Assembly: GCA_032718475.1 (NCBI GenBank)
Contig: JAUCBJ010008854.1
Span: 1-64,000 of the forward strand
DNA: 64,000 nucleotides
Direction of reading: 5' to 3'
DNA from: Nemertoderma westbladi
Lineage: Eukaryota > Animalia > Xenacoelomorpha
Shown one piece after another: positions 11,990 through 62,437 of this stretch (within the stretch, counting starts at the first letter, position 1; every line of letters starts with the position of its first letter). The notes under the pieces are model-generated. The model was given only the letters and a program-made list of their open reading frames with translations. It had not been told where the DNA came from and made no database searches. The position numbers and the translations under genes are program-made.

Positions 11990-12663
11990 AACAGTAAAAG
12001 TGTCCGAGTCTGTACTCCCACATATTCCCATAGGCGATATCGCCTTTGCTGAAGTGAAGGCTGCTGCAAAGAGCATTAAGACCAATCGTGCCAGTGGAGT
12101 AGATGGTGTTCCCCCCGAGGTCTTTTAAATTCCTGAGTGTTTAAAGCTCATCATAGTAGGCATGTACAGAACAACGAGAGTCCCGCAAGAAATGAAAACA
12201 AATAAGTTGGTGCCAGTTCCCAAGAAGGGCAACCTAACACTCTATGGTTCTTTTCGGGCAATCTCATTGATCTCGATTGCTGCAAAGCTATACAATAGAA
12301 TTCTATTAAATCGCATCAGGGATCCCATTGAAAGACTGCTACGTGGAAATCAGAATGGGTTCCGTAAAGGTTAGTGGGACCAAGGACAACTAAGGTTATG
12401 GAGGACCTGTCTGTTTAACTTTATTGACTTCTTCAAGGCCTTTGATTCAGTCACTCGCTCACGTATGTTCAGCATACTTTCATTATATGGGATTCCTGAT
12501 GAAATTATTGCAGCAATCAGATCAGTATACGATGGTTCGACAACATTTGTGTCTACTGTTGACGGTGACAGAGAACCATTAGAAGTGTTATGGGGAGTCC
12601 TCCAGGGAGACACAGTTGCACCATTCTCATTCATAATTGTGGTTGACTATGTTCTACGCATGG
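11990..12663 (+). mobile_element. Degenerate RTE-type LINE RT region, 5' part, interrupted by the LTR element
   Basis: EVKAAAKSIKTNRASGVDGVPPEVF, PKKGNL...FRAISL, QNGFRKG, DFFKAFDSV, GVLQGDTVAP. Stops are present; the frame is cut at YVLRM by the LTR. Confidence 0.9.
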
Positions 12664-13865: not shown

Positions 13866-14146
13866 ATAACGGATATAGCTTCTGTATTGCAGTAGGCAAT
13901 AAAGCTGAAGTACCGGCAACCGGTACCCAGTAGGCCTGACTACCTAACCACCCGGACCGGTACCTACAGCAGTACAGGTACAGCAGTATTATTCGATTTT
14001 GATAATTATATACCGGTAGGCCTTAATAATTAATCAGGGACTGCAGCCTTGGTTTTTTATTGAGATTTTTACTTATTTCTGTCAAGTTTTATTTGTTTGT
14101 AGGCCAGTATTGAACAGAAGGCGTGTAAGCCTGATCAGATTGTACA

Positions 14147-27100: not shown

Positions 27101-27189
27101 AAGAAAACTAACTGTTTAGAGTATCTTTATGTTTTAGAAACTGTGATTTTTATATTTTATAGACTGAAAATCCCATTTTCTGGGAGCGG

Positions 27190-28390
27190 TGTAAAAGCTT
27201 TTGCTGAATTGCCCGGTTATTTTTCCTTATTTTTCCCGTAAAATACTCTGTAGTTGGTTTAATAGGCGTAAGAGGCCGTATTATTGCTGTATCGGTGTTT
27301 TTAGAGGATCTAAGAGCTATTTCTTCCGTATGTGTACTGTGGAAGGCATAGTTGATGATTCTATGGCAATTCCGTGACGCAAAAGGGGATAGCTACTCTT
27401 GAACAGTAGTTACTATGACGACGGTTAACAGCTGATATTCATACGTGTCGATTTTCTTTGTTCTACGGCATCTCTCAGTTCAGTCAACCAATCAGAGCGT
27501 TTTTACTGTTCTTGTATAGAAATTTCCTAGAAATCACGCAATGCTGTATGGGCAGTGTTGACATTCTGTCCTGAGCCAGGAGAGAGCGGCTTTGGAATAT
27601 TTTGTGCTTTTCTGCTTTAGCCTAACACTAGTAGGCTTAATTATAAGGACATATATCCGTTATCACACTTAATATCTCACTGGTTATCACTGGTTAACTG
27701 GCCCATACTGTGCAACTTAACTTAACATTACTGCTTTGCTGTCGGTTATTCATTATATTTGTTGATGAATTATTATATTTGGAATAACGAGAAATAACCC
27801 CGAAACCCAATATTCTTGATATACCGAAGGTAAGAGAGAAAGGTTACATATAACGATTGCGACTTATGTTAAAGTGGTTTGAAGTGAATCTAATGTTATT
27901 TGATAGACCCTACAGAGTCGGTCTGTGTTCCTTTTATATGTGACTAAAATCAGTGAAGATCGGCAGATTAGTGTGCAGTATTGTGCAGCATTGTGTATGA
28001 GTGAGACTGATAACGAAGCATTTCCTAAAGAATGTGCCATATATGTGAATTGTAACTAAGCCATATCGTTGTGAGTAGTTTAAGTCATAACTCTGTTTAT
28101 ATAGATAGAGCGCCACGTCCTAAAGGAACTGTTAATATTCCCCGAAGGTGAATAATATTGTCAGAGATTATATAATGCTGTCAGTCGAATAATACATTAG
28201 GCTTACATAGCAATACGATTAAGCCCTCGAAGTCAATCTCCCGGGTATATCCAACGGGTGAATGATCGCGCACAGATTGGTTTCAACTAGTGTAGTGAAT
28301 CAAATACTTGTTAGAGGCTAAAGCGATTTATTATCTAGAAGACATCCTAATTTGGCGGGTTAAACTGCCAAAGGTCTGAAAGCGCGAACA
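27190..28390 (+). repeat. 3' LTR (1201 bp)
   Basis: Near-identical direct repeat of 12664-13865, followed by TSD CATGG. Confidence 0.97.
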
Positions 28391-28950
28391 CATGGCCTTA
28401 GATCGTCATAATGATGATGGGTGATGGTAACTCCACCTACTGGCTCCAGAAGTCGAGGAAAGGCACATTAAAAAAAATGCTACGTCGGGTTCACAGTGTC
28501 AGGTACACTGCATTGGAGTCCCTATACAGCATTGAAGGAGTCTTAATATGCCCCCCAAGTGTGACACTCGAACAGAAGCGCATCTGCTCTGCTTTCGCAG
28601 TAATGACCAGTCTGTGAATGATGACTTGGTTCTTGGGTGGCTTTATGGAGATAATAATTAAAGACACTATATAACATTGGAGGTGTCTCATTGGTTCCCC
28701 AAAGCTTGACGGTAGAACAAAGCCGCCTCCGCTATACGGGACATTGTTTTCGCAGGGAGGACCAACCTGTGCACAATCTTGTGCTTTGGCAGCCCCATGG
28801 AGAAAATAAGCATGGTGGCAGCATGACTTTCGTGAGATGCCTCCTAAAGGACACTGGCCTTGAAGGTGCGGATAATCTCGCGAAAGTCATGGGAGATAGG
28901 GAGTTGTGGAGGTGCAATTTTGTTGATATGCCGGCATATCATTCTTATTG
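28391..28950 (+). mobile_element. Continuation (3' part, internally deleted) of the RTE LINE split by the LTR element
   Basis: Resumes MALDRHNDDG..TPPTGSRSRG, collinear with the 58-kb copy, and ends RLRYTGHCFRRED...GDRELWR. Confidence 0.85.
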
Positions 28951-32335: not shown

Positions 32336-34256
32336 TGTCTGCATTCCGGTGGATTTTCGCCTTTAACCTCGTTTTTCCCGGGCTTGTAATCGGGATCATC
32401 TTCATCTTCGTCCTCACCTTCGTACTCATCACCCTCGTCCTCCTCTTCCTCAATATCCTCATCAACCTGGGCTTCCCCGGTGAAGTAGAACACGGCCTGT
32501 AAAGAATCAGATTAACATTATTAACTAGGCCAATATTTGTAATATAATCTCACCAACATATTGGTGTTGCGTAATTACATTACATACAAACAAGCAAGCA
32601 AACAGTCGGCCGAGGCCTGAGGCGATAGCTGCTACCCGAAGGTGGGGGTGGGCGCAACTCATAACTCATTTTCAGGTCCCAGTAATTCAACTGGTCGTTA
32701 TATTATCGACCCCACTATTAACTTGTTTATAAACGAAGCTACGATTTAAGACTAGCATGTTAGGCTAATTACTAATTAGATATTATTAATATCTTTAACA
32801 TCCAAAGATTGGGAAAATATGCATTTTAAGTGCGAAGGGAAGGGAAGTTTATTTACAAGAAGTAGAATTCGAAAATCACGATATACAGTAAATAACAAAT
32901 GGCGAACAACTAACTTTTCTTTTTCAAGTCAGATCTGCATAAACGTAAGACTAAATGGATGAATTTAAACAATAGATTAGGCAGTAGGCAGTAGGAGGGT
33001 TTACCTTGGGGAGAATCCTGTCCCGGAACAGAATCGCGATATCGAAATCGGCCTCCATCATCTGTTCGAGTTCGGGGCCCTCGTCACCGCCGTCCCCCCG
33101 GGGCCCCTCGAAGAAGTTAAAGAAACTGCAGTTGGGTACTGTCTTGGATACAGTCCTCGTCTGCCCTTGCGATTTGTGTTTCTGCTTCTTCTTTATGGTC
33201 TTTACCGTCACGTTCTTCCCTTTCTTCCAATCGATTTTACAACCGATTAGACTCTTTATCTGCGCGCCCTCGTAATTAATAACGTCCTCCAATGTGTCGG
33301 ACGGCCCGTATTCCATAAGGTAGAGTTTGCTAAGGACAGTGTTGTTAAAGAACTCGTTGGGAGAGAAATGGAAGTCTAGAGAGAAGTTAGGAGAGACGTG
33401 TCCGGGACAATCCAATCGCACTCGAATGTCTACGAGGTTCTTCAGAATGGGTTCATCGTGTTCCAAGATGAGTTCCGCTACCATTTCAATGCTCTTTAAG
33501 GTTGTCAACCAGAACTCCGGGATGCCAACCTCGGCGTCTCTCTTCTCCTCCGTCTCCTCCCCAACAACCTCCGGCCATTCGCTCAACTCCCACTTGGATT
33601 CCTCCTCGGATGGTTCCACCGCCCCGGTGATAAACCCTCGTCGTTTCTCGTAGATTTCGTCGAACTTTGCCTGGAATCTCTTCTCTAACTCGTGGACTTC
33701 CTTGTAGAAATCCGCCTCAACTGTCACCTGTCGAAAGGAATGAATATGCAATGCAGATAGGCCTACGCAGATAGGGATAACAAGAAAAAAAGATAACTAA
33801 AGTTTACATTAAAGTCATTAAACAAATATTAATGCATGAAATATCGTAGACATGGGCTTAACGAATGACATTATGATAGTGATACTTATTATTATTAAAC
33901 ATAGGCCCTAATGCATAAAGCGCCATATATCGGTATACGGTTCAGTTGACATGCTTATGTTAGGTTAGGCCTACCTGTTTGTGACACAGACATCTCAGAG
34001 CATCAACTCGTCTCTTTACTTCCGTCGGTAGACTCTCAATGTATCCGCTACTCTGGCCAACCAGAGCGTCCAGTTTCCCTTGGATCGCGGCCAGAGCTTG
34101 AGGAGATTTCAGGAGGTCCGGTATCACGGTCGACTTCTCGCCGGGGCCCTTCGCCGGAGAGGGTTCTGAACTTGCCGCGTCGCCGGATTCCGTCGGTACG
34201 TCTTCTTCGCACTGGTTTGGTGCGTCGATTAAGGGTTCACCGTCGTTAGCTGACAT
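32329..34256 (-). CDS. NAP1: Nucleosome assembly protein 1-like, 3 exons (34256-33975, 33727-33005, 32496-32329), 390 aa
   Basis: YIESLPTEVKRRV, GIPEFWLT, DEPILK.L.DI, F.PNEFF.N.VL.K.Y, GCKIDWKKGKNVT..KKKQKHK, SFFNFF, LPK|AVFYFTGEA, acidic tail, terminal CRQQ CaaX-like motif. Both introns are GT-AG and phase 0. Confidence 0.95.
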
Positions 34257-43118: not shown

Positions 43119-46100
43119 CTAATTTCCAGGTATTGGTATATACCGATACCCCTACCGGTATGCTGGTATACAGGTATAGGCTACCAGCAACCAGTACTGT
43201 AGACAGTCATAGTCAGACAGTAGCCTACTGCAGTACTGGTATACTAACTACTGAACTACTAACAGATTCGATTAGATTATGTATGTTATCATGTACGGTA
43301 CATTACTGCATTATGCATTACTGCATTATATGTTATACCTAGGTAAATTAGGCCTATTGTATTAGGCCTATAGGCCTACTGTATACATACACCCCACATA
43401 CTACTGCTGTACTGTAGCCAGGTAGCTATGTAATTGTTTTGTATTGTTCTGTACAGATTATGACAGATTGTACCGGTAATTGTTTTCTAACTAAATAGGC
43501 TACAGTATCAGTAGTAGGGCTCGATCGGAGTTGGGATTTGGCCGGAGCCGGAGCAGGAGCCGGAGTTGGACAATTTGGCCGGAGCCGGAGCAGGAGCCGG
43601 AGTTTTTCAAAAATTTTAAAAATTTAATTATTTATTTAAAAAAAAATAAAGTATGGTTATCGTTCGCCAATCGCTCATAATCAATCATACTGTAGGTCTA
43701 ATTAATTTCATATTTATAGATTTACGAATTTTCAATTTAAAATTTAAGTAATTAATTTATCACAGACAAACGGCACGGCACGGCTTGACGATGACGGCGA
43801 CGGCCTGATGCTGACGGCGACGGTGGACGGCCTGACGCTGACGGCTAAAAATTACCTACAGTACCTAACTCACTAACTCATAACTATCTACAGATCTAAC
43901 TGTGGTAGAGGTGTGTACCGTAGGTAGCCTACCGTACGCTGGTACGTGTACCAGTACCGCAGTACCAGAGTACAGTATGCTGGCATGACAGCAGTAAATG
44001 GCTGCAGTGGTACAGTCTGACAGTGTACAATCATAGCATTTACAATTTTTTAAAGTAGGGCCTATCTGTCTGTCTGTAACAGTCTGCTAGTCAGCCAGCT
44101 GGCCAGTACCAGTACTGCAGTACAGTCAGTCAGTCATTGACTTTAAGTAAATACTGCAGTATTATCAGATTATACTTGATATTGAAGGGTTTGACTAAAT
44201 ACGCCACCGACAACCACCGACACCTTTCGCATACCACCGACAACCACCGACAACAAAAGACACAAACCGACACAAACCGACAGGTAAGATCGCAAACCGA
44301 CAGTATACCGACAACTTCGGCAATGTTAGTAAACTATTTCAGTACATGATTATACAATTTTTATTTCCAGTCCAAATATTTATAACAAAGCATATTGTCC
44401 ACTGTCGGCCTGTTGTCGGTGGTGTAATTAGTCATGATAATTTCTTTAAAATATAATACCGCCTTCATATATTATCTTATTTTAAATTATTATATTGCAT
44501 AGCGTAATGGTAAAAATCGCTAGTGTTTTTCATATGTCGGTGTGTTGCTATTATTATTAGTTTTTGTCGGTGGTAGTCAGACTGTTGTCGGTGGTAGTCA
44601 GACTTTTGTCAGTGGTATATTTCTGCGGTATCCGTTCTTAAACTTGGACATACAGTACAGTGCGATAGGCCCCTACAATGCCGAAATTTATTACTTTACA
44701 TACAGCTGCACATTGTGTGACGTAATTGGTATTTACCTAAATGACGTAAAGTAAAGTGAAGGAAGGAAACAAGAAGCAACGGAAACTCGTTTCTCTCTTG
44801 GATGTTACCGGAAAAGAATGGTTGCCCAACACAATCTCCCAAGGATGACCACTTCATAACTATTCAACCTTTTCTGTATCCCCATAAGCCAGGCGGCATA
44901 TTGTACTGTTGGATTTGTTAACATAAGACTTTGCCTTAACTGGCTTTAAAATTTGACTAAATACTACACCGACAACCACCGACACCTTTCGCATACCACC
45001 GACAACAAAAGACACAAACCGACACAAACCGACAGTTAAGATCGCAAACCGACAGTATACCGACAGCTTCGGCAATGTTAGTAAACTTTTTTAGTACATG
45101 ATTATACAATTTTTATTCCCAGTCCAAATATTTATAACAAAGTATATTGTCCACTGTCGGCCTGTTGTCGGTGGTGTAATTAGTCATGATAATTTCTTTA
45201 AAATATAATATCGCCTTCATATATTATCTGTTTTAAATTATTATATTGCATAGCGTAATGGTAAAAATCGTTAGTGTTTTTCATATGTTGGTGTGTTGCT
45301 AGTATTATTAGTTTTTGTCGGTGGTAGTCAGACTATTGTCGGTGGTAGTCAGACTATTGTCGGTGGTATATTTCTGCGGTATCAGTTCCTATACTCTAAC
45401 ATACAGTACAGTGCAATACAATTCCGAAATTTATTACTTTACATACACCTGCACATTGTGTGACGTAATTGGTATTTACCTAAATGACGTAAAGTAAAGT
45501 GAAGGAAGGAAACAAGAAGCAACGGAAACTCGTTTCTCTCTTGGATGTTACCGGAAAAGAATGGTTGCCCAACACAATCTCCCAAGGATGACCACTTCAT
45601 AACTATTCAACCTTTTCTGTATCCCCATAAGCCAGGCGGCATATTGTACTGTTGGATTTGTTAACCTAAGACTTTGCCTTAACTGGCTTTAAAATTTATT
45701 GCTAATGCAGCTTTTTGTTTTCGTGTTGGCATTTACTGTATGGAATTTGCGCAACCGAAACAAAAAACGGTGCCAGTTTATTGATTGATGAGTTGGTGGA
45801 AAATAATATTGATCGATTGGAAGATTGATTCATTAAATTATATATTAGTTTAAGATATACCAGTTTTCCAAAATTAAATTAATTCTACATAACTGTAATA
45901 ACGAACCTGCATGTATACAGTACATACAGGCGGGGTGAGTATTTTGTCAAAACTTATTGTCTCATGTATCTATCTATGTATGTATCCATCTGCCATAAAT
46001 CAGCAGTTACTTACACAGTTTCGAGACTTCTCATACTGTAGTTATAAAGGTCGTCGCCTGCGTAGAAAAAATATTTTATGACAAAACAGGACGAGCACAA

Positions 46101-46234: not shown

Positions 46235-46550
46235 TTAAGAATGATATGACGTCTTGTCGACAAACATACCAACCATGACATTTGCTAGATCTTCCGCATC
46301 TTCAAGGCCAGTGTCCTTTAAGATGCGTCTCAAGAAAATCATGGGCTGTCCACTATGGCTATTCACTCCATGAGGCCGTCAAAGCACAAGATTATGCACT
46401 GGCTGGTCCTCACGGCGAAAGCAATATCCTGCAAAGCGGAGACGCTTACGTTCAAGTGTCAAGCTTTGGGGGACTAGAGACACTTCCAATTTTTTATAGT
46501 GTATTATTGGAGATGAGTTCATTATACTATACAGTGTACTTGACACAATT
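46235..46550 (-). mobile_element. Degenerate RTE LINE 3' fragment inside the MULE
   Basis: Matches 6104-6320 and 57400-57640 (TCAAGGCCAGTGTCCTTTAAGATGCGTCTCAAGAAA...GCACTGGCTGGTCCTCACGGCGAAAGCA). Confidence 0.75.
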
Positions 46551-47349: not shown

Positions 47350-50300
47350 ACAGCAAGGTGGCTTACCAGAAAGAAATCGAATTCCCTTGCCAGGTAAGTT
47401 TGCAGATTATGCATATTATATTATGTAAAATTAAATGAAAAGTTATCAGTACCCGCAGCATCAGTTAGCTATCAGTTTAGCTTATATAATACCGGTGCTG
47501 TTTACTGTCAAAAAAATATTTTATTACAAATTACAACAGTGAAGCGAGTGCAGAGTGCCACAATAATTTTATTTCGCCGAGAGCCGGATCGCTCAGGATG
47601 CGGCCTACAAGGCGAGACAGTTAGACGCCCTCCAAGCCATTCCCGCCGCATTCGACGCCGCACAGTGGAACATACGGTGTCCCACAAGACGGGGGGGGGG
47701 GAGGGTGGTTAACGGCTCAGCCCTCCGTGGTAGACCACACGGACCTGGACCAGGAGGTGTCTCGGCGGCTCGTCGGTCCAGTGGGAGGTAACTCTGTCCA
47801 CTGGTTACCTGGATAGATGGGGTCGCGAGGTCGGTGGGGTCAGGGCTGATCTTTTGGCGCGAGGAGTCTGGGCCAATCAGAGGGTGGCGTCTTTCGACAT
47901 TGCGGTTGTAATCGCCGACGCCCTCTCTTATTCCAACCGGTCCGTAGACTCCATTCAGGATTTACGGGTTCGCGCCAAGAAGGTCCCTTATAGCAGGTAC
48001 CACCGACGGGGTGTGGTGCAAGGGATCAGAGATCCTGAGCCGCCACCTCGCGGAGACCCTCGTTGCGCGGCGGCAAGGGATGCGGGAACGTGGCCTTGCT
48101 TGCGTTCTCGGGGGAGTTCGGAGGCGTCTTCAGTTCGCGCTCCTCCGCTCCAACTCGCTTTGTTTGCGTCGGTCCTGGAGGTGTCTCGGGTTCGGGGACG
48201 GAGCTGGTCTGCGTGGGTCTGACCTACCAGACAATTACTGATTTGGTGGTGGTATACGTGCTATTTATTGTTGGTGCGATTTTTAATTGTATTTATTGTT
48301 TGTTCTTATCTGTATAATATCATTTAATAAAAATATAATATGTAATATTTATTTTGTTTACAGATTTGTGGCAATGAGTGTGATTACTTCTCACCAAGCA
48401 TCGAATGCGATCGTTGTAAACTATGGACCCATACCGTATGTCTGGAAATGCCAGTCAGTTTAATAAATAGGTGGCAAACAAACCTAAGATTTCTCTGCAA
48501 GGATTGTACACACGTTCGAAATCGATTCGACTTCAAAGGTTCCTTAGAAAGGTACAGTAGGTTAAACTTAAAATAAATATTGCATTAGAAAATGTGCAAG
48601 GATGTCGTCAGAGCTCGAATCAGTGCGTTATAATCAGGGGCATATTGAGGCAAAATTTTATTATTGCCACTTCAAAATAATACTTTAAAATTCCTCAACT
48701 CAACACGCCTAATGTGCGTTATACTGACATATACTGTACATACATTAGTTCAGCTTGCAGCTGGAGTGACTTTATGGAGTAGGGGATAGTCACTACTGTA
48801 TGTATATAAATTGGAAGGTCCATGTTCGTTCGCAAGTAAATCCGGATTTTGTTTTGATTATTTTGTTGGTAAAGTTGGTCATATATCCCTAACATTTTGT
48901 ACCGGTGCAATTGTATTTTTCAACTATATTATTATCGTAGGGTGTTTTACATTAATTGCATTATCATTATATAAATTTATACGTTTTAGGATACATGAAG
49001 TGTACATAAAGACTCGATTAAATAAGGGGGACCTGACTGAGTTGAAGGAATGCGCAGCCTCTGAAGAATTGCTGTTACTTACATACAGAGTCGTCCTCCC
49101 GCCACTCATTAAAGAAACTTTGGTCGATAAGAAAATATACAATAAAGACAACCAAGCAAAGAAAATATTAGAAGAATGTCATCCACACATGCTGAGAGAT
49201 TACACGCCACTGCAAGTGGCTGGTGATGGAAACTGTCTCTATCGCGCTGTATCCTTGGCAGGTTTTAGGTGTGAATCTTATCATGTCCATTTACGCTTGC
49301 TAGTGGCTTTAGAGGTTATATGTCACAGGGAACAATATGATACAGAATGTGAGGTTTACAAAACCACCATTAAGAACAAGTATATAAATGAGCCCGGCTA
49401 TTTGGATCTCGTGAATACTATTGTACGTTACAAAGAATGGAGTGGTTTATTAGTGATGTATGCGCTATCTGCAGTTATTAGTAATCCTATTCTGTCGTAT
49501 ATGCCACCATTCGACCTTGGGACTATGGATTTAACAAGTGCATTTCGAGGTCGAATAGTTGGTAGGGGTGTTCGATCGGTTAAGGAGGCTCATATTATTG
49601 TAATGTGGAGTCAGTGCGGTTCAATGGACACTTCATATTATTCATCTGTCAATCATTTTGCCGTGTTGGCAAAGAAAGGAAGTAGTAAGGTAGTGATAGA
49701 AGTAGAAACATCAACTCCTGCTAGTGACGGAGGAAGTGAAGATCAACTAATGTCGCCTATTCCATATTCTGATGATATATTTTCAGATGCATCAAATGAA
49801 ACACCAATCCCATTTACTCAGGTACGATTTGACAGTCCATTATCTGGTGAAATCCGTTCTTCTTCAAGTGTTATATCTCCAAGCCCAATAATTGTTGAAG
49901 ATTTTATTGTTCAAAAGGAGCAAGACCTTAGAACGGGAGCTTTAGGATGCTTATTTTCCCATTCTGATAAGATATTAGAGTTACTAACATCAACATCCAG
50001 TCTAGACAAGGTACCTAGAGGAAAAAAGGAAAATTGTTACTTTATTGTCAATAATGAAAGAAATGTAGAATTAAGAAACGAAAATAAAAAACCTAGATAT
50101 GAAGATGACTGTGGAGCCTGGGACTCTGCACGCAGTTCTTCAAATTCATATTGGTATGAACTTCACGATGACAATAACAACATAAAGAAGAGACTCTATA
50201 CGAAATCTGGTACATTTTGCACAGAGGTACGGGAGGGTAAGAAAAAAAAATGATATCGATTGACCCTCAACCAATAAGGGTCCTAAAGTTGGGCCGCTAC

Positions 50301-51208
50301 TACTCCAAACTAAAATGTGATAACCGATATCAGAAAAGAATATCTTGGGTAATAGAGGCTCCTTCTAGTTGTGCTATCAAGAGCAATATTGCCGTATGGG
50401 AATATATAGGAGAATTCCCAGGCCTTTCCGTGCATGGAAATTCCTCTATAACTTCCAATAATTATGTGAGGACAACAGAAAACGCATGGGATGCAATGGA
50501 TAAAATAATACCTCTTGCTGCACCTAAGAAAGTGTATTCCGAACTAAGTAAAGGGGAACCAACCGATAAGTTTCCAAGAAACACAAAACAAATAAGAAAC
50601 CGTAAGTACCGATACTTAGAAAGGCAACAACAAGAAGGTTCTACTGATGTTATTCATAGAAGCAACTTTTCTGATCAATTGCAAATTATTTCGTCTATGG
50701 TGCAAGATCATCCGTTTGTGCAACATGTACTGCATTCTAAGAATGAAGTGCCAACAGTGGTACTCTTTACTGATGATCAAATGCGTGATGTTAATAATTA
50801 CTGTTGCACTGGTCGATGTGTCCTGGCGTTCGATAAGACATACAATTTGGGGGATTTGTATGTAACACCTTCAACATTTAAATGTATGTCTGTCATAAAC
50901 ACAGATAGCTTATTTATGGTGTTGTTGAAGTTATGTACCGCGACTTTCAACGTGCGTTATTAGGCCAGGGAAATTATTCCCTCTCAAAAGAAGCTAAACG
51001 GCTAGCCATTTCCCCGGAACAATGGTCCGAGTTGAACGAAGAACAAAGACGAAAGGCCATAGAAAAACTTGCCAGTTTCAAATCTCTGCGAAGGCACCAC
51101 CTTGTAGATTCAACCGATGGGAGACTAAAAACAATGTTTAAAAAGACAGGCCGAAAACCGGGACAAGGCCGACGAAAGAAAACTCGCTCAATGAAATCTA
51201 CGAAATAG
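47350..51208 (+). pseudogene. Spliced PHD finger + vertnin-like OTU + MULE-type transposase gene, frameshifted and internally deleted
   Basis: Exons 47350-47393, 48364-48551 and 48990 onward join in frame (FPCQ|ICGNEC...IECDRCKLWTHTVC...FLCKDC, C4HC3). OTU-like GDGNCLYRAVS...VNHF; YEDDCGAW; VLAFDKTYNLGDLYVT; frame change at A-run 50242-50250; C-terminal RALLGQGNYSL. Start exon not identified. Confidence 0.8.
47580..48245 (+). mobile_element. Degenerate CRE-like (RLE) non-LTR fragment within an intron of the MULE gene
   Basis: RADLLARGVW...ASFDIAV..ADALSY...KK..Y and TDGVW...HLAETL...VRRRLQFALLRSNSLCLR, RLE endonuclease motifs with a frameshift. Confidence 0.7.
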
Positions 51209-51249: not shown

Positions 51250-52365
51250 TATTTTTCATAATGGCAAAATGCCACCAGCCCCTCCCCCAGAGAGACCACT
51301 ATCACCACAATTAGCTTTTCATTTCTTCCGGAGTAATTTTTATATTTTAGAATTACTTACAGTGTATTATGTAGAATGAATTTAATTTAGGAAAAATATT
51401 TTTGAAGACTATCTGTCAACCAATCTTTCTATCGATCAATATATTATTCCACCAACACATCAATCAATAAATCAATATATACTGTATACAGTAGGTACCT
51501 GAACTGTATAAAGAAAAAGAGTAACAAAAAAGTAAAACACATTATCTTATACAATGCTATATTGCGCCTCTGCATTCTCACGGGCTGGGCACCGTTTTTT
51601 GTTTCGGTTGCGCAAATTCAATACATTAAATGCCAACACGAAAACAAAAAGCTGCATTAGCAATAAATTTTAAAGCCAGTTAAGGCAAAGTCTTATGTTA
51701 ACAAATCCAACAGTACAATATGCCGCCTGGCTTATGGGGATACATAAAAGGTTGAATAGTTATGAAGTGGTCATCCTTGGGAGATTGTGTTGCGCAACCA
51801 TTCTTTTCCGGTAACATCCAAGAGAGAAAGGAGCTTCCGTTACTTCTTGTTTCCTTCCTTCACTTTACTTTACGTCATTTAGGTAAATACCAATTACGTC
51901 ACACAATGTGCAGGTGTATGTAAAGTAATAAATTTCGGAATTGTATTGCACTGTACTGTATGTTAGAGTATAGGAACTGATACCGCAGAAAAATACCACC
52001 GACAATAGTCTGACTACCACCGACAAAAACTAATAATAATAGCAACACACCGACATATGAAAAACACTAATGATTTTTACCATTACGCTATGCAATATAA
52101 TAATTCAAAACAAGATAATATATGAAGGCGGTATTATATTTTAAAGAAATTATCATGACTAATTACACCACCGACAACAGGCCGACAGTGGACAATATAC
52201 TTTGTTATAAATATTTTGACTGGAAATAAAAATTGTATAATCATGTACTGAAATAGTTTACTAACATTGCCGAAGCTTTCGGTATACTGTCGGTTTGCGA
52301 TCTTACCTGTCGGTTTGTGTCTTTTGTTGTCGGTGGTATGTCAAATGTGTCGGTGGCGTATTACT
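51250..52365. repeat. ~1.1-kb direct duplicate of the inner part of the MULE right arm (~52955-54100)
   Basis: TTTTTCATAATGGCAAAATGCCACCAGCCCCTCCCC... starts both copies and continues collinearly. Confidence 0.85.
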
Positions 52366-55249
52366 TTGAAGGCAATTTTCTCGGAATGACATTCTTTCAC
52401 GCAAATTTTTTATTAATTTCGTAAGATTTTATAATAATTCGAGTTATTTACAAATTAATTAATAACCGCAGGGGGTAGCCCCCCGTAATTAATATATCAT
52501 ATTTACACAATGCAAGACAATGTAACTGACAGACTTGGTTTGTCATTGTGACATTTTTTGCATTGTATCGAATGTATTTACATACACGTTGTACAACGCA
52601 AAAACGCTGTTAGTACAAAAGACAACCCTGAAGTCAAAATATTAATGGAAAGTGAAAAATAATACGCAGAAAAATTTCCCACCACCAGAAGAAATTAGAT
52701 ATTTACGGACATTTTAAACCAACAATCTGAAGACAAAAGGTAATTTGCGTTTTTCTCTGAGAAATTACTTATTTGACTTACGGTCTTTTTACATTGCACG
52801 GCAGAATTGGTGTTATAATATCTTCACAAGGAAATAAGCAGACAACCAACAGTGATAGAGTTGTCTAAGAGTGTCGGTTTGCCATTTTGTTTGTCGGTTG
52901 GTTGACTACCAAAGGCAACTTTTCACATACACCGATATAAACAAAGTAATTCAATTTTTCATAATGGCAAAATGCCACCAGCCCCTCCCCCAGAGAGACC
53001 ACTATCACCACAATTAGCTTTTCATTTCTTCCGGAGTAATTTTTATATTTTAGAATTACTTACAGTGTATTATGTAGAATGAATTTAATTTAGGAAAAAT
53101 ATTTTTGAAGACTATCTGTCAACCAATCTTTCTATCGATCAATATATTATTCCACCAACACATCAATCAATAAATCAATATATACTGTATACAGTAGGTA
53201 CCTGAACTGTATAAAGAAAAAGAGTAACAAAAAAGTAAAACACATTATCTTATACAATGCTATATTGCGCCTCTGCATTCTCACGGGCTGGGCACCGTTT
53301 TTTGTTTCGGTTGCGCAAATTCCATACATTAAATGCCAACACGAAAACAAAAAGCTGCATTAGCAATAAATTTTAAAGCCAGTTAAGGCAAAGTCTTATG
53401 TTAACAAATCCAACAGTACAATATGCCGCCTGGCTTATGGGGATACAGAAAAGGTTGAATAGTTATGAAGTGGTCATCCTTGGGAGATTGTGTTGGGCAA
53501 CCATTCTTTTCCGGTAACATCCAAGAGAGAAAGGAGCTTCCGTTACTTCTTGTTTCCTTCCTTCACTTTACTTTACGTCATTTAGGTAAATACCAATTAC
53601 GTCACACAATGTGCAGCTGTATGTAAAGTAATAAATTTCGGAATTGTATTGCACTGTACTGTATGTTAGAGTATAGGAACTGATACCGCAGAAAAATACC
53701 ACCGACAATAGTCTGACTACCACCGACAACAGTCTGACTACCACCGACAAAAACTAATAATACTAGCAACACACCAACATATGAAAAACACTAATGATTT
53801 TTACCATTACGCTATGCAATATAATAATTCAAAACAAGATAATATATGAAGGCGGTATTATATTTTAAAGAAATTATCATGACTAATTACACCACCGACA
53901 ACAGGCCGACAGTGGACAATATACTTTGTTATAAATATTTGGACTGGAAATAAAAATTGTATAATCATGTACTGAAATAGTCTACTAACATTGCCGAAGC
54001 TGTCGGTATACTGTCGGTTTGCGATCTTACCTGTCGGTTTGTGTCGGTTTGTGTCTTTTGTTGTCGGTGGTATGCGAAAGGTGTCGGTGGTTGTCGGTGT
54101 AGTATTTAGTCAAATTTTAAAGCCAGTTAAGGCAAAGTCTTATGTTAACAAATCCAACAGTACAATATGCCGCCTGGCTTATGGGGATACAGAAAAGGTT
54201 GAATAGTTATGAAGTGGTCATCCTTGGGAGATTGTGTTGGGCAACCATTCTTTTCCGGTAACATCCAAGAGAGAAGGGAGCTTCCGTTACTTCTTGTTTC
54301 CTTCCTTCACTTTACTTTACGTCATTTAGGTAAATACCAATTACGTCACACAATGTGCAGCTGTATGTAAAGTAATAAATTTCGGCATTGTAGGGGCCTA
54401 TCGCACTGTACTGTATGTCCAAGTTTAAGAACGGATACCGCAGAAATATACCACTGACAACAGTCTGACTACCACCGACAACAGTCTGACTACCACCGAC
54501 AAAAACTAATAATAATAGCAACACACCGACATATGAAAAACACTAACGATTTTTACCATTACGCTATGCAATATAATAATTTAAAACAAGATAATATATG
54601 AAGGCGGTATTATATTTTAAAGAAATTATCATGACTAATTACACCACCGACAACAGGCCGACAGTGGACAATATACTTTGTTATAAATATTTGGACTGGA
54701 AATAAAAATTGTATAATCATGTACTGAAATAGTTTACTAACATTGCCGAAGTTGTCGGTATACTGTCGGTTTGCGATCTTACCTGTCGGTTTGTGTCGGT
54801 TTATGTCTTTTGTTGTCGGTGGTTGTCGGTGGTATGCGAAAGGTGTCGGTGGTTGTCGGTGGCGTATTTAGTCAAACCCGATATTGAAGCTGTACTACAG
54901 TACTTCAGTACTTATAGTGTTAAATAATTGTTCAGATTAGAACATGCACGAAATATAATACTTTATTAAAAAATTAACTCCGGCAATATTTTTACCGGAG
55001 CCGGAGCAGGAGCCGGAGGTGCCAAAATGGCCGGAGCCGGAGCCGGAGGCTGGAGCTCCGATCGAGCCCTAATCAGTAGGCCTATACAATGTAAATCTAA
55101 AATATAATTCCTGAATTCTGTAATTAGGCCTAAATCGATATTTTGATGTTCTAGATGAATTATCTTGAGCTTGACTGTTATCTACAGTACAGTACTGCAG
55201 TACAGTCAGACAGTCTAACATCTAAGGCAGGGAGAGCGCCACACTCAGA

Positions 55250-56613: not shown

Positions 56614-57231
56614 GCAAATCCATGCCCGGTCAGCCGGTTAAATTTCCATAGTGTACGCTGTACGGTATTCTCACTCCCACGCCCACCACCCACTGGTGTA
56701 CTTTTTGGTATCGTCTACCAGTCTGCCAGTCGGTGAGAAGTCAAAAATTGGACTTCAAGTCCAATTTTAGACTTAAAGTCCAATTTTGGACTCCAAAGTC
56801 CAATATTGGACTTTAGTACAACTCCAAGTGTACCTACCCATGCTGCCATACTGTATATCGGTATTTAAATCAAAACTGCATCCCGTATCCGTACATATAT
56901 ATTACATAATTACAATGCAACATTATTTTAATGATCAAATTAATTATTATAAGTATTATAAGCAGGGATCGCACACATACAGTCAGACATCAGTAGTTAC
57001 TTTTTGCGGTAGTGGTATGGCTTTGCGGTAGCCTTACTGCCTTAATCTGTTAATGGTGTATACCGCGGTTCGCGGTAGCGGTAGTGGAGTTATAGCTGTA
57101 TAGTTCATTCATACCCATACCTGTGGCTGTGGTATTTTCGTATGGCAAAAATAAGACTATCGTATGGCAAATCTGTAACCTATTATGTTATTGAGTTAAT
57201 GTTTATGTTTATTGACTAATTGTTTTGATTA

Positions 57232-58900
57232 GGTTCACTGTGTCAAGTACAATGCACACATCTCCAACCAGACACTACAGCACTATATAACATTGGAGTT
57301 GGAGGTGTCTCTTGGTTCCCCCAAGCTTGACACTAGAACAAAGCCGCCTCCGCTTTGCAGGACATTGCTATCGCTGTGAGGACCAGCCAGTGCATCCGCA
57401 TCTTTAAGGCCAGTGTCCTTTAAGATGCGTCTCAAGAAAGTCATGGGCTGTCCACCATGCTTATTCACTCCATGAGGCTGCCAAAGTACAAGATTATGCA
57501 CTGGCTGGTCCTCACGGCGAAAGCAATGTCCTTCAAAGCGGAGGCGATTTTGTTCTAGTGTCAAGCTTGGGGGAACCAATGAGACACCTCCAATGTTATA
57601 TAGTGTCTGGTTGGAGATGTGTGCATTGTACTTTGACACAATGAACCCGGCGTAGCATTCTTGTGAATGTGCCATCCAGAGATTTGGTGTCCTCAGCAGT
57701 TAGAGCCCAGCATGGACTCCCGTAGAGGAGTACTGGAACTACTGCTGCTCTAAATAATCGGACCTTAAGTTTCCGATTAATTCTCAGTGACTTCCAAATC
57801 CTGGAAAGCCTATTCAAGGCTGCCCATGCCTTTCCCTTACGTATTCGAAGGTCCTCACCTGACTTCCGGATCCATAATCCCAGGTAACAGAAGTCGTCCA
57901 CATGCTCAAGCATACCATCCTTTGAGCTTATGCTCATCCGATCAGAGACTTGCTGAGGACTTTCAAAGTTAACGGTCAGAATTTTGGTCTTTCTGGAGTT
58001 AATAAAAAGACCAACACTAGAAGCAGCATGTTCTAATGAGCTGAGGAGCCGTTGGGCTCCCTCTAATGATTCTGAGAGTACTCCTAAGTCATCAGCAAAG
58101 TCTAGATCAGTTAGGTATTTGGCAGGATTTCCTCGACTTCTGGAGCCAGTAGGTGGAGTTATCATCACCCCATCATCATTATGATGATCTAAGGACATGC
58201 ATAGAACATAGTCAACCACAATAATGAACAAGAATGGTGCAAGTGTGTCTCCTTGGAGGACGCCCCATAACACTTCAAATGGTTCTGTCTCTGTGTCACC
58301 GTCAACAGTAGACACAAATGTTGTCGAACCATCGTATACTGATCTGATTGCTGCAATAATTTCATCAGGAATCCCATATAATGAAAGTATGCTGAACATA
58401 CGTGAGCGAGAGACTGAATCAAAGGCCTTGAAGAAGTCAACAAAGATAACAGCCAGATGCCTGTCTTTCTTTTTTGATAATTCTTCAATTATCCTTCTAA
58501 GTGCCAAAATGGGCTCCATGATCCCACGACCTTTACGGAACCCATTCTGATTTCCAAGGAGTAGTCTCTCAATGGGATCCCTGATGCGATTTAATAGAAT
58601 CCTATTGTATAGCTTTGCAGCAATCGATATCAATGAGATTCCCCGAAAAGAACCATAGAGCGTTAGGTTGCCCTTCTTGGGAACTGGCACCAACTTATTT
58701 GCTTTCACCTCCTGCGGGACTCCTGCTGCCCGATACACGTCCACCACGATGGGACAGACGAGCCCCAAACACCCAGGCACTCCAAAGACCCCAGGGGGAA
58801 CACCACCCACTCCACCGGCACGACTGGTCCCAACGCCCCCCGCAGCAGCCCTCACCCCTGCAAAGGAGACATCGCCAATGGGAACATCCGGGAACACTTA
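57232..58900 (-). mobile_element. 5'-truncated RTE-type LINE (RT ORF 58897-57596) with an inverted duplicated 3' piece
   Basis: FRGISL, QNGFRKGR, FVDFFKAFDSV, GVLQGDTLAP, LDFADD, INSRKTK, FCYLG, LLYGSPCW. 57232-57395 is a plus-strand copy of ~57497-57648. Confidence 0.92.
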
Positions 58901-59758
58901 CTGTCTTAAAGGACACTAATTGTTGGGGGGTGGTGCAGGAGGTGGACCACCCAGTCTGCCAGTCATGCCAGTGGCCATTTTTGGACAGATTTGTCTCAAA
59001 TTTCACACAGACACTCTCTGACCTATGTGTAACTTCATAGAAAAAAGTTTTAAATTAGGTGATTTTCCGCTTCGAGCAGCACGATTGAAAAGCATGAGTT
59101 TATGGCTTTTTTCTCGAAAAGTAAATTTTTGCCTGTTTTCAAATGTGCACTATTTCCTTAATTTTCCTTCAATTTGCCGGAAAATATACTGACAGACACC
59201 CCAGGTCGTGTATTTAGTGTGGTGTAAATTTTACGGCTGCAGACCCAGCTGTAACTGTGTGTGTGTGTAGTAGTAGGCTTATATCGAAGTCGAACTTAAA
59301 TTAGGCCCTATATTGACAGTTTTGAAATTTATAATATCATGGGGTATCTATCTGCATCTGGGTATGCTATGCTGGTATGTAAGAATATACTGAGGGGGGT
59401 TAAATTTTACTAAAAAATCACCCAGAGTAGTTTATCTCCGGGTTAAAATACCCCAATGAATTCTAACCGGGCTGCCGGGCAGCCGGGGGGTGAAAATACA
59501 CTCAGACACTAGGGAATTTTAACCGCGGGTGAATTTTTAGAGGGGTGGAAATTCTCTGCTACACCGGTACCTCTGTCAGCCTGTAGTCCAGTCCAGTAGT
59601 CTGGTAGTGCATAGTGTAGTCTGTAGTGTAATACTCGTTGTTGCCAGCTGACAGGCAGGCAGGTGGCAGCCAACCAGTGACCAGTGCACACAAAGCTGCA
59701 AAGTGTCTTATAAAGCAAAGCTATCCGGTAACAACTGACCAAGTGAACATACTGAACA

Positions 59759-62437
59759 ATGATTACGTTAGTTTTTTTGTGGAGGTTTGTAATGCTTTCT
59801 ATATGTGTTGCTTGTACATTCGTCATCCAATGTGCTTATGCCAATGAAGATACTGTTATTGCTAAGCCGGATAACAAAGTTCGTGTTTTAGAAAACCTAA
59901 TCTTAATAACCACGTTGGATGGCACAATATACGGGACCAGTTTATCTACTGGGGCGATCAAATGGCAGTTTAAGGATGGGCCACTCCTTCGAATGTCGTC
60001 CGTCATTCCAAAGAAAGGGCCGATGTTTTTACCTGACCCGACCGATGGCACTCTTTACGCTTTCGGAGGCCCCACAGCGGATTTTGAGAGGCTCAAGAAA
60101 TTGCCTTACTCGATACAGGAGTTAACAGCGGAGTCCCCTCTGCGCGGCGATGATGGGGTCCTTTACACCGGGAAAAAGTTAGATAAATGGTACGGGATAG
60201 ACCTAGAAACGGGATCCCGCAGTACAACGCTGAATGTAGACGGTTCGACTGAGTGTCCGAAGCTCGATGAGTCTGCAGGTAACCTCGTCTGGATCGGACT
60301 CACCGAGTACACCATGGCCACGTACGATGGGGCTACGGGTGTCCCATTATGGAACGTAAGTTACGTTGAATACAAGTCTAATGTGTGGCGACCAGGCGGA
60401 GTGGATCCGCCCACGCTTTACGCTAGCACCTCCAGTGGGCTCACGGTCGCCGTGGATACCGAACGGGTCGTCTGGGCTAACGAACTACACCCTGAATCCC
60501 CCGTGGTGGGTGCATACTTACTGGGTCCCCCGCGTGGTGTAACCCATCTACAGCGGGTCCCTTTTAAGTCGGTTCGCTCTCACAGACTCTTGGGTCTATC
60601 TGAGGGTGACCCCCTCCCCCAATGGATGTCCGGCGCGCCGCCCCTACTGCAGACTCTCTACGTCGCCCAGCAACCCCCGCTGCTGTTCGCCATGTCCGCC
60701 TTCGTGGACCAATCAGAGACGAGTATAATCCCACAGGATTCCTCGACCCCGCGAATCTCCGGCCCCTCCGACATCTCCGAGAGCGCCCCCATGCGGGGAG
60801 TAGAGGAATCCCAGGTGGCGGTGATGAGTCAGTGCGCGCGTAAACGCACGCCGCGCTCGTGCCGCGCGCAGCACATCCTGTTGCTAGGCTACCACGACCT
60901 CCCTCCCGCGGTCCCCACATCCGCCATGATCGCGTTACTGGGCAACCGAACGGTCGCCACGCAACCGCTGCCCGGCGACCAACCTGCCCCGCTAAACGTT
61001 TCCGCGACCCCCCAGATCGCCTCTCCCCCTGGAACTCTCCGAGACAACATCGCAACTTCGTCTCTAGTTATTATAATATCGGGAATATCCGGTGGTTTAG
61101 TCGCCTTTTTATTCCTCATTCTGAATAAACGTTTACTAAATAAACAATTATCTCCTGCGAACGTTTCAGATTACTCGTTACTTTCGTCGAATTCCTCCTC
61201 CTCGTACGACGGTTCCTATTCCGCGAGCAGCGGCGCGATTACCATCGGGAAGATCGGCTTCTTCCCGGACTCGATACTGGGCCGCGGGTGCGAGGGGACC
61301 TGCGTCTACCGGGGGCTGTTCGAGGAGCGACCCGTAGCGGTTAAACGCCTTCTGCCGGAGTGCTTCCAGCTGGCGGACCGGGAGGTCGCCTTGCTGCGGG
61401 AGAGCGACGCCCATCCCAACGTGGTCCGCTACTACGCGACCGAGACGGACCGGCAGTTTCGTTACATCGCCTTGGAGTTGTGCGACGCTACGCTGCAGGA
61501 TTACGTGGAGGATCCGTCGTACAGCGGGCCGCGAGTGTCCGACGCGTCGTCGTTACTGCGGGGCGCCACAACCGGGTTGCGACACCTCCACCATCTAGGG
61601 ATAATCCATCGAGATATTAAACCGCAGAATGTTCTTCTAATCTCTCGTCGTGGTTCTTCCGAGCCGATCACCGCGGTTATTTCCGACTTTGGGTTGTGTC
61701 GGAAGTTGTCGGTCGGTCGGGGGTCGGTCACGCGATCCGGTGGGATCGCCGGCACCTCAGGTTGGATCGCACCCGAGGTGCTAAACACCTCGTCTACGAC
61801 TCGATCCGTCGATATATTCTCCGCGGGTTGCGTTTACTATTACGTGTTGAGCGACGGCCACCATCCCTTCGGGGATCCCATCCACCGACAGACTAACATC
61901 GTGGACGGGACCTACAGCGTGTCGCGTTGCGCTCCTACCGCCGGGGACCTGATAGAGTGGATGGTCCGGCGTAGGGGACGTCCGTCGGCTCACGCTGTGC
62001 TGCTGCACCCCTTCCATTGGAGTCCCGAAAAACAGACGCAGTTCCTGATGGACGTGAGCGATCGTGTGGAGAAGGAGACGATGGATTCCTGTGGGTTTTT
62101 GCGCGATCTGGAATGCGAGACGATTATTGGGGGCAACTGGGTGGACCGGGTTACTCCCGATCTACAAGCTGATCTGCGTCGTTACCGCACCTACAGAGCC
62201 GAGAGAATCGCTCATCTACTTCGGGCCATTCGGAATAAGAAACACCATTACAAGGACCTCCCAGACGAACTGAAACTCAGTCTCGGAGACACGCCCTCCT
62301 CCTTTATCCACTACTTTACCTCCCGTTTCCCTCTGCTCATCACCCACACATACAAGGTGTGTTACTCTATCCGTCACGAGAACCGATTCCAGTCCTACTA
62401 CTCCTCTCAAGAGTCGACAGACGACCCACGACGTTAA
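59759..62437 (+). CDS. IRE1: Serine/threonine kinase/endoribonuclease IRE1, intronless, 892 aa
   Basis: Signal peptide; luminal domain (TLDGTIY, FLPDPTDGTLY, KLPYSIQEL...SP); TM helix; kinase LGRGCEGTCVY/VAVKRLL/HRDIKPQNVL/DFG/WIAPE; KEN RNase LLRAIRNKKHHY. Confidence 0.97.
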   Translation: MITLVFLWRFVMLSICVACTFVIQCAYANEDTVIAKPDNKVRVLENLILITTLDGTIYGTSLSTGAIKWQFKDGPLLRMSSVIPKKGPMFLPDPTDGTLYAFGGPTADFERLKKLPYSIQELTAESPLRGDDGVLYTGKKLDKWYGIDLETGSRSTTLNVDGSTECPKLDESAGNLVWIGLTEYTMATYDGATGVPLWNVSYVEYKSNVWRPGGVDPPTLYASTSSGLTVAVDTERVVWANELHPESPVVGAYLLGPPRGVTHLQRVPFKSVRSHRLLGLSEGDPLPQWMSGAPPLLQTLYVAQQPPLLFAMSAFVDQSETSIIPQDSSTPRISGPSDISESAPMRGVEESQVAVMSQCARKRTPRSCRAQHILLLGYHDLPPAVPTSAMIALLGNRTVATQPLPGDQPAPLNVSATPQIASPPGTLRDNIATSSLVIIISGISGGLVAFLFLILNKRLLNKQLSPANVSDYSLLSSNSSSSYDGSYSASSGAITIGKIGFFPDSILGRGCEGTCVYRGLFEERPVAVKRLLPECFQLADREVALLRESDAHPNVVRYYATETDRQFRYIALELCDATLQDYVEDPSYSGPRVSDASSLLRGATTGLRHLHHLGIIHRDIKPQNVLLISRRGSSEPITAVISDFGLCRKLSVGRGSVTRSGGIAGTSGWIAPEVLNTSSTTRSVDIFSAGCVYYYVLSDGHHPFGDPIHRQTNIVDGTYSVSRCAPTAGDLIEWMVRRRGRPSAHAVLLHPFHWSPEKQTQFLMDVSDRVEKETMDSCGFLRDLECETIIGGNWVDRVTPDLQADLRRYRTYRAERIAHLLRAIRNKKHHYKDLPDELKLSLGDTPSSFIHYFTSRFPLLITHTYKVCYSIRHENRFQSYYSSQESTDDPRR

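What the first reader, a model, noticed from the sequence alone, without database searches (positions are those of the whole stretch)
58700..58900. Fossil A-to-G hyper-editing fixed in a genomic LINE copy
Seen: aligned by eye to the sister copy at ~12012-12200, the sense strand here has roughly 35-38 A>G changes in ~200 nt and only about two G>A. Example: GAA GTG AAG GCT GCT GCA AAG AGC ATT AAG ACC AAT becomes GGG GTG AGG GCT GCT GCG GGG GGC GTT GGG ACC AGT. The bias stops abruptly near 58700. The A version encodes the canonical RT-upstream motif (EVK.A.K..K..RA.G.DG.P.E), so the G version is derived. Established: ADAR hyper-edits dsRNA A>I, which reverse transcriptase reads as G, whereas APOBEC leaves G>A. 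Inference: a hyper-edited transcript was retrotransposed into the germline, a rarely documented heritable record of RNA editing acting on a LINE. The 5' truncation falls right at the edited block.
Basis: partly seen in the sequence, partly recalled or inferred. Interest (0 to 1): 0.8.

Follow-up and report, generated by a model that had tools for sequence, protein, structure and literature searches.

The report
RNA-editing scar in genomic LINE copy
One jumping-gene copy in this animal's chromosomes has 42 of 62 A letters changed to G in a single 194-base block on one strand, most likely because its RNA was edited by the enzyme ADAR before being copied back into DNA, which would make RNA editing a source of inheritable mutations in LINE elements.

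Summary
The LINE copy at 58897-57395 (minus strand) has 37 A>G changes against the sister copy. Against the family majority it has 42 of 62 A changed to G and 0 of 49 T changed to C over 58895-58702. Downstream, 2 of 280 A are G.

G is the derived state: the family majority is A, and near-invariant reverse-transcriptase residues are lost. The block is in DNA: contigs from two studies match it with no differences (42 and 33 of the 42 sites) at about single-copy depth. It is no assembly artefact and no G-rich subfamily.

Editing by 5' neighbour is T 11/12, A 17/20, C 8/15, G 6/15 (A/T vs C/G p=0.0009), the ADAR pattern. Best reading: an ADAR-edited LINE RNA was reverse-transcribed into the genome (about 0.7; about 0.85 for ADAR origin by any route).

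Not shown: a duplex partner, ADAR genes in this host, edited RNA reads, population fixation, or that editing caused the 5' truncation (the unedited sister ends 19 nt further upstream). Known precedent is A>G-edited avian retroviruses; my searches found no paper on germline LINE copies. This scan already noted 14 similar cases in at least 6 genomes.

The parts
58702..58895 (-). A-to-G hypermutated block at the 5' end of the LINE copy: 42 of 62 family A are G, 0 of 49 T are C; 25 codons change amino acid, 10 change silently, no stop is made
57395..58897 (-). 5'-truncated non-LTR retrotransposon (LINE) copy; 433-aa open frame 58897-57596 with RVT_1, then a frameshift; the last ~75-80 nt of the family 3' end are missing
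   Evidence: the family extends about 2 kb further 5' (2356-nt contig of run X5)
57232..57395 (+). Second piece of the same family in the opposite orientation, joined tail to tail with the edited copy; not A>G-biased
58904..58917 (+). 14-nt exact match to the family's 3' region, plus strand, 6 nt beyond the 5' junction; read as the far end of the plus-strand copy into which the edited copy inserted, or as a short templated insert
   Evidence: 4 matches in the window, the other three in family copies; 0 expected
57215..57224 (+). Left copy of a 10-nt direct repeat flanking the whole composite; candidate target-site duplication
   Evidence: 2 matches, 0.32 expected; 2 of 100 shuffles reach 2
58915..58924 (+). 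Right copy of the 10-nt direct repeat; overlaps the 14-nt family piece by 3 nt
11993..12662 (+). Unedited sister copy, 5' part (comparison copy; decayed, with its own deletions and a stop)
28391..28950 (+). Sister copy, 3' part, separated from the 5' part by an LTR element

Best explanation
This genomic LINE copy carries a one-strand block of 42 A-to-G changes, most likely because about 200 nt of the element's RNA were double-stranded, were deaminated A-to-I by ADAR, and were then copied into a chromosome by the element's own reverse transcriptase, which would read inosine as G. Steps. (1) Shown: the family is abundant and has copies on both strands. (2) Inferred: the sense RNA paired over about 200 nt or more with an antisense transcript or with a fold-back arm of the source transcript that is not in the insertion. 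(3) Inferred from the signature: ADAR converted about two thirds of the adenosines, sparing those after G and C. (4) Inferred: target-primed reverse transcription ran from the 3' end through about 1.3 kb of unedited RNA, then through the edited block, and ended there. (5) Shown: the result is chromosomal DNA at about single-copy depth in two samples, and near-invariant reverse-transcriptase residues are lost, so the copy is predicted to be dead. Germline origin is inferred from its presence at full depth in two samples.
For: Strand and direction: 42/62 A>G, 0/49 T>C, binomial p=2.6e-11. Polarity: the family majority is A at all 15 block positions shown. In one search no A>G variant reaches 1% except at 12173 (1.5-2.3%), a site that is unedited in this copy. 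Among 120 homologous proteins E (91 of 92), D (98 of 98) and K (91 of 101) are G in this copy. DNA: X1 contig 58698-59009 has 0 differences at depth 21 (all 42 sites); X2 contig 58735-59012 has 0 differences at depth 29 (33 of 42 sites); X3 contig 58678-59023 has 3 differences at depth 32; a neighbouring flank contig has depth 29 in X1 and 26 in X2. Context: 5' T 11/12, A 17/20, C 8/15, G 6/15; A/T vs C/G p=0.0009; 5' G depleted p=0.012; UAG 3/3, AAG 7/7, GAC 0/2. This matches ADAR as described in PMC3113232 (Results part 1 read) and PMC9989829 (passages). Edits fall on all codon positions alike (18/11/13), so selection did not shape them. Other changes in the block are as few as in the body, which points to one burst. 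Edit density falls at the 3' edge (5 of 14 in the last 25 nt; small numbers). Host genes are animal-like (IRE1 51-56% to named animal IRE1 proteins), and ADARs were found in all animals surveyed except Trichoplax (PMC9989829, passage).
Against: No partner arm: a degenerate scan of the window found no second match to the block on either strand, and the unedited sequence folds no better than shuffles (z=0.35). The 3' G preference is not significant (15/18 vs 27/44, p=0.14). The 5' A/T preference is also the recalled WA motif of polymerase eta. No whole genome is held, so ADAR genes and other edited copies could not be sought. The copy has no 3' end or duplication of its own, so target-primed insertion is not shown directly. 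No contig listed bridges the block to the unedited body by 31 nt or more (X3 reaches 24 nt past the last edit), so the sharp boundary rests mainly on the assembly. In HeLa cells ADAR1 restricts L1 without its catalytic domain, and no edits were found in more than 2.5 kb of L1 RNA (PMC5224506, passages). One of the two samples may be the source of the window.
Confidence: 0.7

Rival explanations
1. Same ADAR origin, different route into DNA: the reverse transcriptase switched at about 58700 from an unedited RNA to a separate edited RNA fragment, or cDNA from an edited RNA patched the 5' end of an existing copy during repair.
For: Sharp boundary with no edits beyond it (0 of 17 A in the next 75 nt). 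The junction is complex: 6 unmatched bases, a 14-nt inverted family piece, and a lost 3' end.
Against: A duplex of limited length on one RNA gives the same boundary with fewer steps. Non-A>G divergence is alike in block and body, which fits one age.
Confidence: 0.15
2. An error-prone DNA polymerase (iota- or eta-like, or the element's enzyme short of dATP) put G opposite T while making the second strand, starting at the element's 5' end; no RNA editing is involved.
For: The block begins exactly at the 5' end, where second-strand synthesis would start. It gives sense-strand A>G only. Pol iota puts G opposite template T more often than A (PMC3031609, abstract). Pol eta favours WA sites (recalled, not read).
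Against: Pol iota has low processivity and tends to halt after template T (PMC3031609, passage), yet runs of three consecutive changes and 42 changes over 194 nt are present. Other error types are at background (2-3 of 194). 42 T:G mismatches would have to escape repair. The full 5' ranking T>A>C>G follows ADAR.
Confidence: 0.07
3. Adenines were deaminated directly in the sense DNA strand, for example in an RNA:DNA hybrid with an antisense transcript, at or after insertion.
For: Would give one-strand A>G with deaminase-type neighbour bias. ADAR activity on DNA in hybrids is recalled from the literature, not read here.
Against: During reverse transcription the hybrid's DNA is the antisense strand, which predicts sense T>C; 0 of 49 were seen. 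Converting 68% of A in DNA would have to outrun hypoxanthine repair (general knowledge).
Confidence: 0.05
4. Not a single hypermutation event: an assembly or polishing artefact, a G-rich subfamily, GC-biased conversion, or APOBEC-type G>A change in the sister.
For: All runs laid are assembled contigs whose DNA label is a guess, not raw reads; one sample may be the window's source.
Against: Two studies give contigs with 0 differences across block and junction. At 58764-58766 the only X2 contig laid at 80% likeness is the locus itself (depth 29.1 of 29.1), and in X1 157 of 178 depth reads the family base. The family majority and protein conservation favour A. No T>C, so not strand-symmetric GC bias.
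Confidence: 0.03

Closest known systems
ADAR-linked A-to-G hyperediting in avian retroviruses RAV-1 and avian leukosis virus, and in HTLV-2/STLV-3 in culture (as cited in PMC8586724, passage read; original papers not read)
   Same: Clustered one-way A>G changes recorded in a reverse-transcribing element and attributed to ADAR.
   Different: Those are exogenous retroviruses in infected cells. This is an endogenous non-LTR element in an animal genome, present in DNA of two samples.
APOBEC 'DNA editing' of genomic retroelements (PMC4866542 and PMC2873906, passages read)
   Same: A heritable, strand-biased, clustered deaminase scar in a genomic retroelement copy, found by comparing sister copies with the family.
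   Different: There the change is G>A on the sense strand, made on cDNA, mainly in vertebrate LTR elements, and at noise level in 19 invertebrate genomes. Here it is A>G on the sense strand of a LINE. [quoted passage not shown]
ADAR hyper-editing of young repeats in animal transcriptomes (PMC9989829, passages; PMC3113232, Results part 1)
   Same: Young repeat as target, clusters, 5' U/A preferred and 5' G avoided, weaker 3' G preference; sense-antisense pairing as a known source of duplex.
   Different: Those edits exist in RNA only; here the pattern is in DNA.
ADAR1/ADAR2 restriction of human L1 (PMC5224506, passages; PMC8677026, search listing only)
   Same: ADAR meets a LINE RNA.
   Different: In culture ADAR1 restriction is editing-independent and no L1 edits were seen; this copy points to heavy editing of a LINE RNA that still inserted.

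Membership tests
ADAR hyper-edited sequence | One-way A>G on the transcribed (sense) strand, without the mirror T>C | tested here: met
   42/62 A>G, 0/49 T>C
ADAR hyper-edited sequence | Dense cluster against low background | tested here: met
   42/62 vs 2/280, p=5.5e-36
ADAR hyper-edited sequence | 5' neighbour U/A preferred, G avoided | tested here: met
   T 11/12, A 17/20, C 8/15, G 6/15; p=0.0009 and p=0.012; feature from PMC3113232 and PMC9989829
ADAR hyper-edited sequence | 3' neighbour G preferred | tested here: inconclusive
   15/18 vs 27/44, p=0.14
ADAR hyper-edited sequence | Long double-stranded RNA substrate covering the edited interval | tested here: inconclusive
   No partner arm in the window, no own hairpin; the source locus and antisense transcripts are outside what is held
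ADAR hyper-edited sequence | Active ADAR in the host and edited RNA of this family | not testable with these tools
   No genome held; no RNA holder on record
Non-LTR retrotransposon (LINE) | Reverse transcriptase of non-LTR type | tested here: met
   RVT_1 E=2e-28 and weak DUF6451; 1363 homologs, 41-59% identity among the best 120
Non-LTR retrotransposon (LINE) | Apurinic-type endonuclease upstream of RT | tested here: inconclusive
   Lost from this truncated copy; present in 2 of 3 relatives scanned (L005, L008; 43-45% identity), not detected in L001. Clade not determined.
Non-LTR retrotransposon (LINE) | Many dispersed 5'-truncated copies | tested here: met
   Family pieces at about 6.1, 12.0/28.4, 46.3 and 57.2-58.9 kb; 47,777 contigs laid in X1
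Non-LTR retrotransposon (LINE) | Intact 3' end and target-site duplication of this insertion | tested here: inconclusive
   3' end missing; a 10-nt direct repeat flanks the larger composite, not the edited copy alone
APOBEC DNA-edited retroelement | Clustered G>A on the sense strand relative to the family | tested here: not met
   The family majority is A; neither copy shows a G>A cluster

The most novel reading that the evidence does not exclude
ADAR editing is a recurring germline mutagen of LINE elements in invertebrate animals, the RNA-level counterpart of APOBEC DNA editing: edited RNAs still insert, arrive dead, and are cut short where inosine-rich RNA stops or breaks reverse transcription. 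A genome-wide screen of this very large family would then find a measurable class of sense-strand A>G blocks sitting at 5' ends, a datable record of germline double-stranded RNA and ADAR activity.
Probability: 0.35. Interest if true: 0.8.

Novelty: new variant of a known kind. Interest (0 to 1): 0.6.

Why it matters
A review of retrotransposon restriction says that a role for ADAR editing in Alu subfamily evolution and in suppression by mutation has not been determined but is logical to assume (PMC4982230, 2016, passage read). Cell-culture work found no editing of L1 RNA (PMC5224506). A genomic LINE copy with a clean ADAR-type scar is direct evidence of the kind that question needs: RNA edits can be written into inheritable DNA and can destroy conserved residues of the new copy. 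It also gives a simple screen, polarised A>G clusters in repeat families, that can be run on any animal assembly. One copy does not show that the route is frequent or that it restrains the family.

Tried and rejected
(1) Whole-genome screen for more edited copies and for ADAR genes: not possible, no genome is held. (2) RNA evidence: no RNA holder listed. Run X5 (RNA is a guess, another organism label) gave one family-type contig with no A>G row; uninformative. (3) Run X4 lists no contig across the block and has no depth at 59241-59374; a hole proves nothing, so polymorphism is open. (4) Idea that the G-rich plus-strand stretch 58919-58972 is the upstream part of the element, inverted and also edited: rejected. 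It does not match the 30 letters that family contigs carry upstream of 11993, and it has no convincing match in 80 related loci. Parts of the family further upstream were not available. (5) Fold-back partner in the window or intrinsic hairpin: none. (6) The tail-to-tail arms at 57232-57647 as the edited duplex: rejected, they show no one-type cluster and lie 1 kb from the block. (7) Family copies in metagenomes: 0 exact matches; only relatives at 30-66% identity. (8) Atlas search gave only generic RVT_1 clusters, so the clade is not assigned. (9) Earlier notes on this genome or on look-alike sequence: none. (10) Literature: ten searches. Six sought prior reports of ADAR-edited genomic retrotransposon copies (21, 22, 32, 33, 41, 59) and one more sought links to truncation (47); no listed title or abstract opening described one. 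Most subscription papers are not in the library, and no supplements were read.

Full report
Question.

The observation. A self-comparison of the window pairs 12016-12662 with 58893-58196 on the opposite strand. In the pairwise alignment, columns 58690-58900 hold 37 A>G among 61 sister A, 2 G>A and no T>C, with all other types at 3 or fewer. Columns 58200-58689 hold 5 A>G and 4 G>A in 446. The last A>G of the cluster is at 58702. G+C rises from about 0.43 to 0.63-0.64 in the two 100-base bins of the block. Among 43 non-tandem repeat pairs in the window no other has such a cluster (21 against a next best of 6 per 100 columns).

The element. The copy lies on the minus strand from 58897 to 57395 and holds a 433-residue open frame with RVT_1. 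Relatives at 43-45% identity carry an apurinic-type endonuclease ahead of the reverse transcriptase in one long frame (2 of 3 scanned). A 2356-nt family contig reaches about 2 kb upstream of the sister's 5' end. So this is a 5'-truncated LINE of an abundant family: 47,777 contigs of run X1 lie on 2 kb of this region (summed depth is no copy number). I did not determine the clade. The host looks like an animal with no close relative among the candidates scored: the neighbouring IRE1 is 51-56% identical to named IRE1 proteins of cnidarians, molluscs, annelids, arthropods, nematodes, echinoderms and vertebrates (two of the 120 listed hits, not named IRE1, are at 41%), and a Pao-type LTR element is present.

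Direction of change. Three lines agree. In 120 homologous proteins, positions that are E in 91 of 92, D in 98 of 98 and K in 91 of 101 are G in the edited copy. Contigs laid on the edited copy show the family base A at all 15 block positions displayed. Contigs laid on the sister show no A>G variant at 1% or more except one site at about 2%. One search also shows where the sister itself departs from the family. This removes the two G>A and adds five edits, giving 42 of 62 A changed to G and 0 of 49 T changed to C over 58895-58702. For most sites the family base is taken from the absence of a variant row, not from a displayed row. The site at 58895 lies at the junction and could be outside the element. 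Downstream, 2 of 280 A are G (p=5.5e-36). Changes of other kinds in the block are 2-3 of 194, like the roughly 1.3% in the body, so the block is not a piece of an older subfamily.

Is it in DNA? Ten runs were listed, four holding half the words or more, none on record as RNA. I laid X1-X4 on the locus. X1 has a 312-nt contig over 58698-59009 with no difference, depth 21. X2, another sample and study, has a 278-nt contig over 58735-59012 with no difference, depth 29, covering 33 of the 42 sites. X3, the same sample as X1, has a 399-nt contig over 58678-59023 with 3 differences at places not shown. All three cross the 5' junction into the flank. For X4 no such contig is listed. Limits: these are contigs, not raw reads; the DNA label is a guess; one sample may be the window's source; and no listed contig reaches 31 nt into the unedited body.

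Signature. Edited fraction by 5' neighbour: T 11/12, A 17/20, C 8/15, G 6/15 (A/T vs C/G p=0.0009; G vs others p=0.012). By 3' neighbour: G 15/18, C 5/7, T 12/17, A 10/20 (G vs others p=0.14). PMC3113232 (abstract and Results part 1 read) reports the 5' neighbour as most influential, with U and A preferred over C and G. PMC9989829 (passages) finds 5' U/A favoured and G disfavoured across all animals studied, a weaker 3' G preference, young repeats as main targets, sense-antisense pairing as a real source of duplex in some lineages, and ADARs in all species studied except Trichoplax and unicellular relatives. Edits hit codon positions 1, 2 and 3 18, 11 and 13 times, changing 25 codons non-silently and 10 silently.

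What is missing. ADAR needs a duplex. The window holds no second match to the block on either strand even when A/G and T/C are pooled, and the unedited sister sequence folds no better than shuffles (z=0.35). The partner must therefore have been an antisense transcript or an arm of the source transcript that did not enter the insertion; this is inference. No genome is held, so ADAR genes and further edited copies were not sought.

Junctions. But the unedited sister is cut at 11993, only 19 nt upstream of the equivalent point, so one coincidence cannot carry a causal claim. Six bases beyond the junction lies a 14-nt plus-strand match to the family's 3' region (58904-58917). At the other end the copy lacks its last 75-80 nt and meets a plus-strand family piece tail to tail (57232-57395). 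A 10-nt direct repeat flanks the whole (57215-57224 and 58915-58924; 2 of 100 shuffles reach two matches, and the left copy lies at the edge of a small tandem repeat). My reading, inferred: the edited copy inserted in reverse into a short plus-strand copy, and the centre of the resulting inverted repeat was later deleted. The left side was not covered by the contigs I laid.

Mechanism and rivals. Most likely (0.7) a partly duplexed LINE RNA was edited by ADAR and inserted by target-primed reverse transcription. A template switch to, or patch from, a separate edited RNA (0.15) keeps the ADAR origin. The serious non-ADAR rival is G-opposite-T misinsertion in second-strand synthesis (0.07), because the block starts at the 5' end and the WA motif of polymerase eta (recalled) overlaps the ADAR 5' rule. 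Against it, polymerase iota has low processivity and tends to halt at template T (PMC3031609, passage), and other errors are at background. Direct DNA deamination (0.05) and artefact or subfamily (0.03) fit poorly.

Comparison with what is known. ADAR-linked A>G hyperediting is reported for RAV-1, avian leukosis virus and HTLV-2/STLV-3 in culture (PMC8586724, passage; originals not read; a 1996 title on retroviral A-to-G hypermutation seen only in the reference list of PMC4189041). Heritable deaminase scars in genomic retroelements are established for APOBEC G>A in vertebrate LTR elements (PMC4866542, PMC2873906, passages). For non-LTR elements, PMC4982230 (passage) calls a mutational role of ADAR undetermined, and PMC5224506 (passages) found no edits in L1 RNA. 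My searches listed no paper on ADAR-edited germline LINE copies; subscription papers and supplements were not seen. Earlier notes of this scan describe 14 similar cases in at least 6 genomes, of which 8 were shown, all marked as other genomes. They are unchecked AI notes and not support; they gave me paper leads.

Verdict. Real, genomic, derived, about single-copy, with an ADAR-type signature. It works like the known retroviral A>G hyperediting, but in an endogenous LINE. New variant of a known kind; interest 0.6.

Noticed in passing
window 12662-28390: A Pao/BEL-type LTR retrotransposon with 1204-bp LTRs 99.4% identical (12662-13865, 27188-28390) and long frames at 16004-22603 (2199 aa) and 22604-24127 (507 aa, same frame after a stop) splits the sister LINE copy; a young insertion.
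   Followed up: partly
window 57215-58924: Composite of a plus-strand family piece, the edited minus-strand copy and a 14-nt plus-strand piece, flanked by a 10-nt direct repeat; read as insertion into a short copy followed by deletion at the centre of the inverted repeat.
   Followed up: partly
window 57397-57429 (also about 6184-6214 and 46295-46327): A short imperfect inverted repeat near the family's 3' end that could form a stem-loop; both junction oddities of the edited copy lie in or next to it.
   Followed up: no
sister region 12035-12197, table 5: At least a dozen family contigs at about single-copy depth in runs X1 and X2 match on both sides but not over 50-90 nt in the middle; they may be old diverged copies or further edited blocks; their letters were not shown.
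   Followed up: no
window 59756-62437, 32951-33796, 3980-5182: IRE1 (893-aa frame), NAP-family and NUDIX-family genes read as long uninterrupted frames, suggesting an intron-poor animal genome; the NUDIX gene has a 94% identical partial duplicate at 9427-10494.
   Followed up: partly
window 58900-59400: Run X4 (a third sample) has little or no contig depth over the 5' junction and flank, while X1-X3 do; the insertion or its flank may be polymorphic, but a hole proves nothing.
   Followed up: no
window 44187-45892 and 51251-54879: A family of about 750-bp units in direct and inverted arrangement (94-98% identical) surrounds frames at 48790-50963, one with a weak OTU-like match; possibly a large DNA transposon with long inverted ends.
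   Followed up: no
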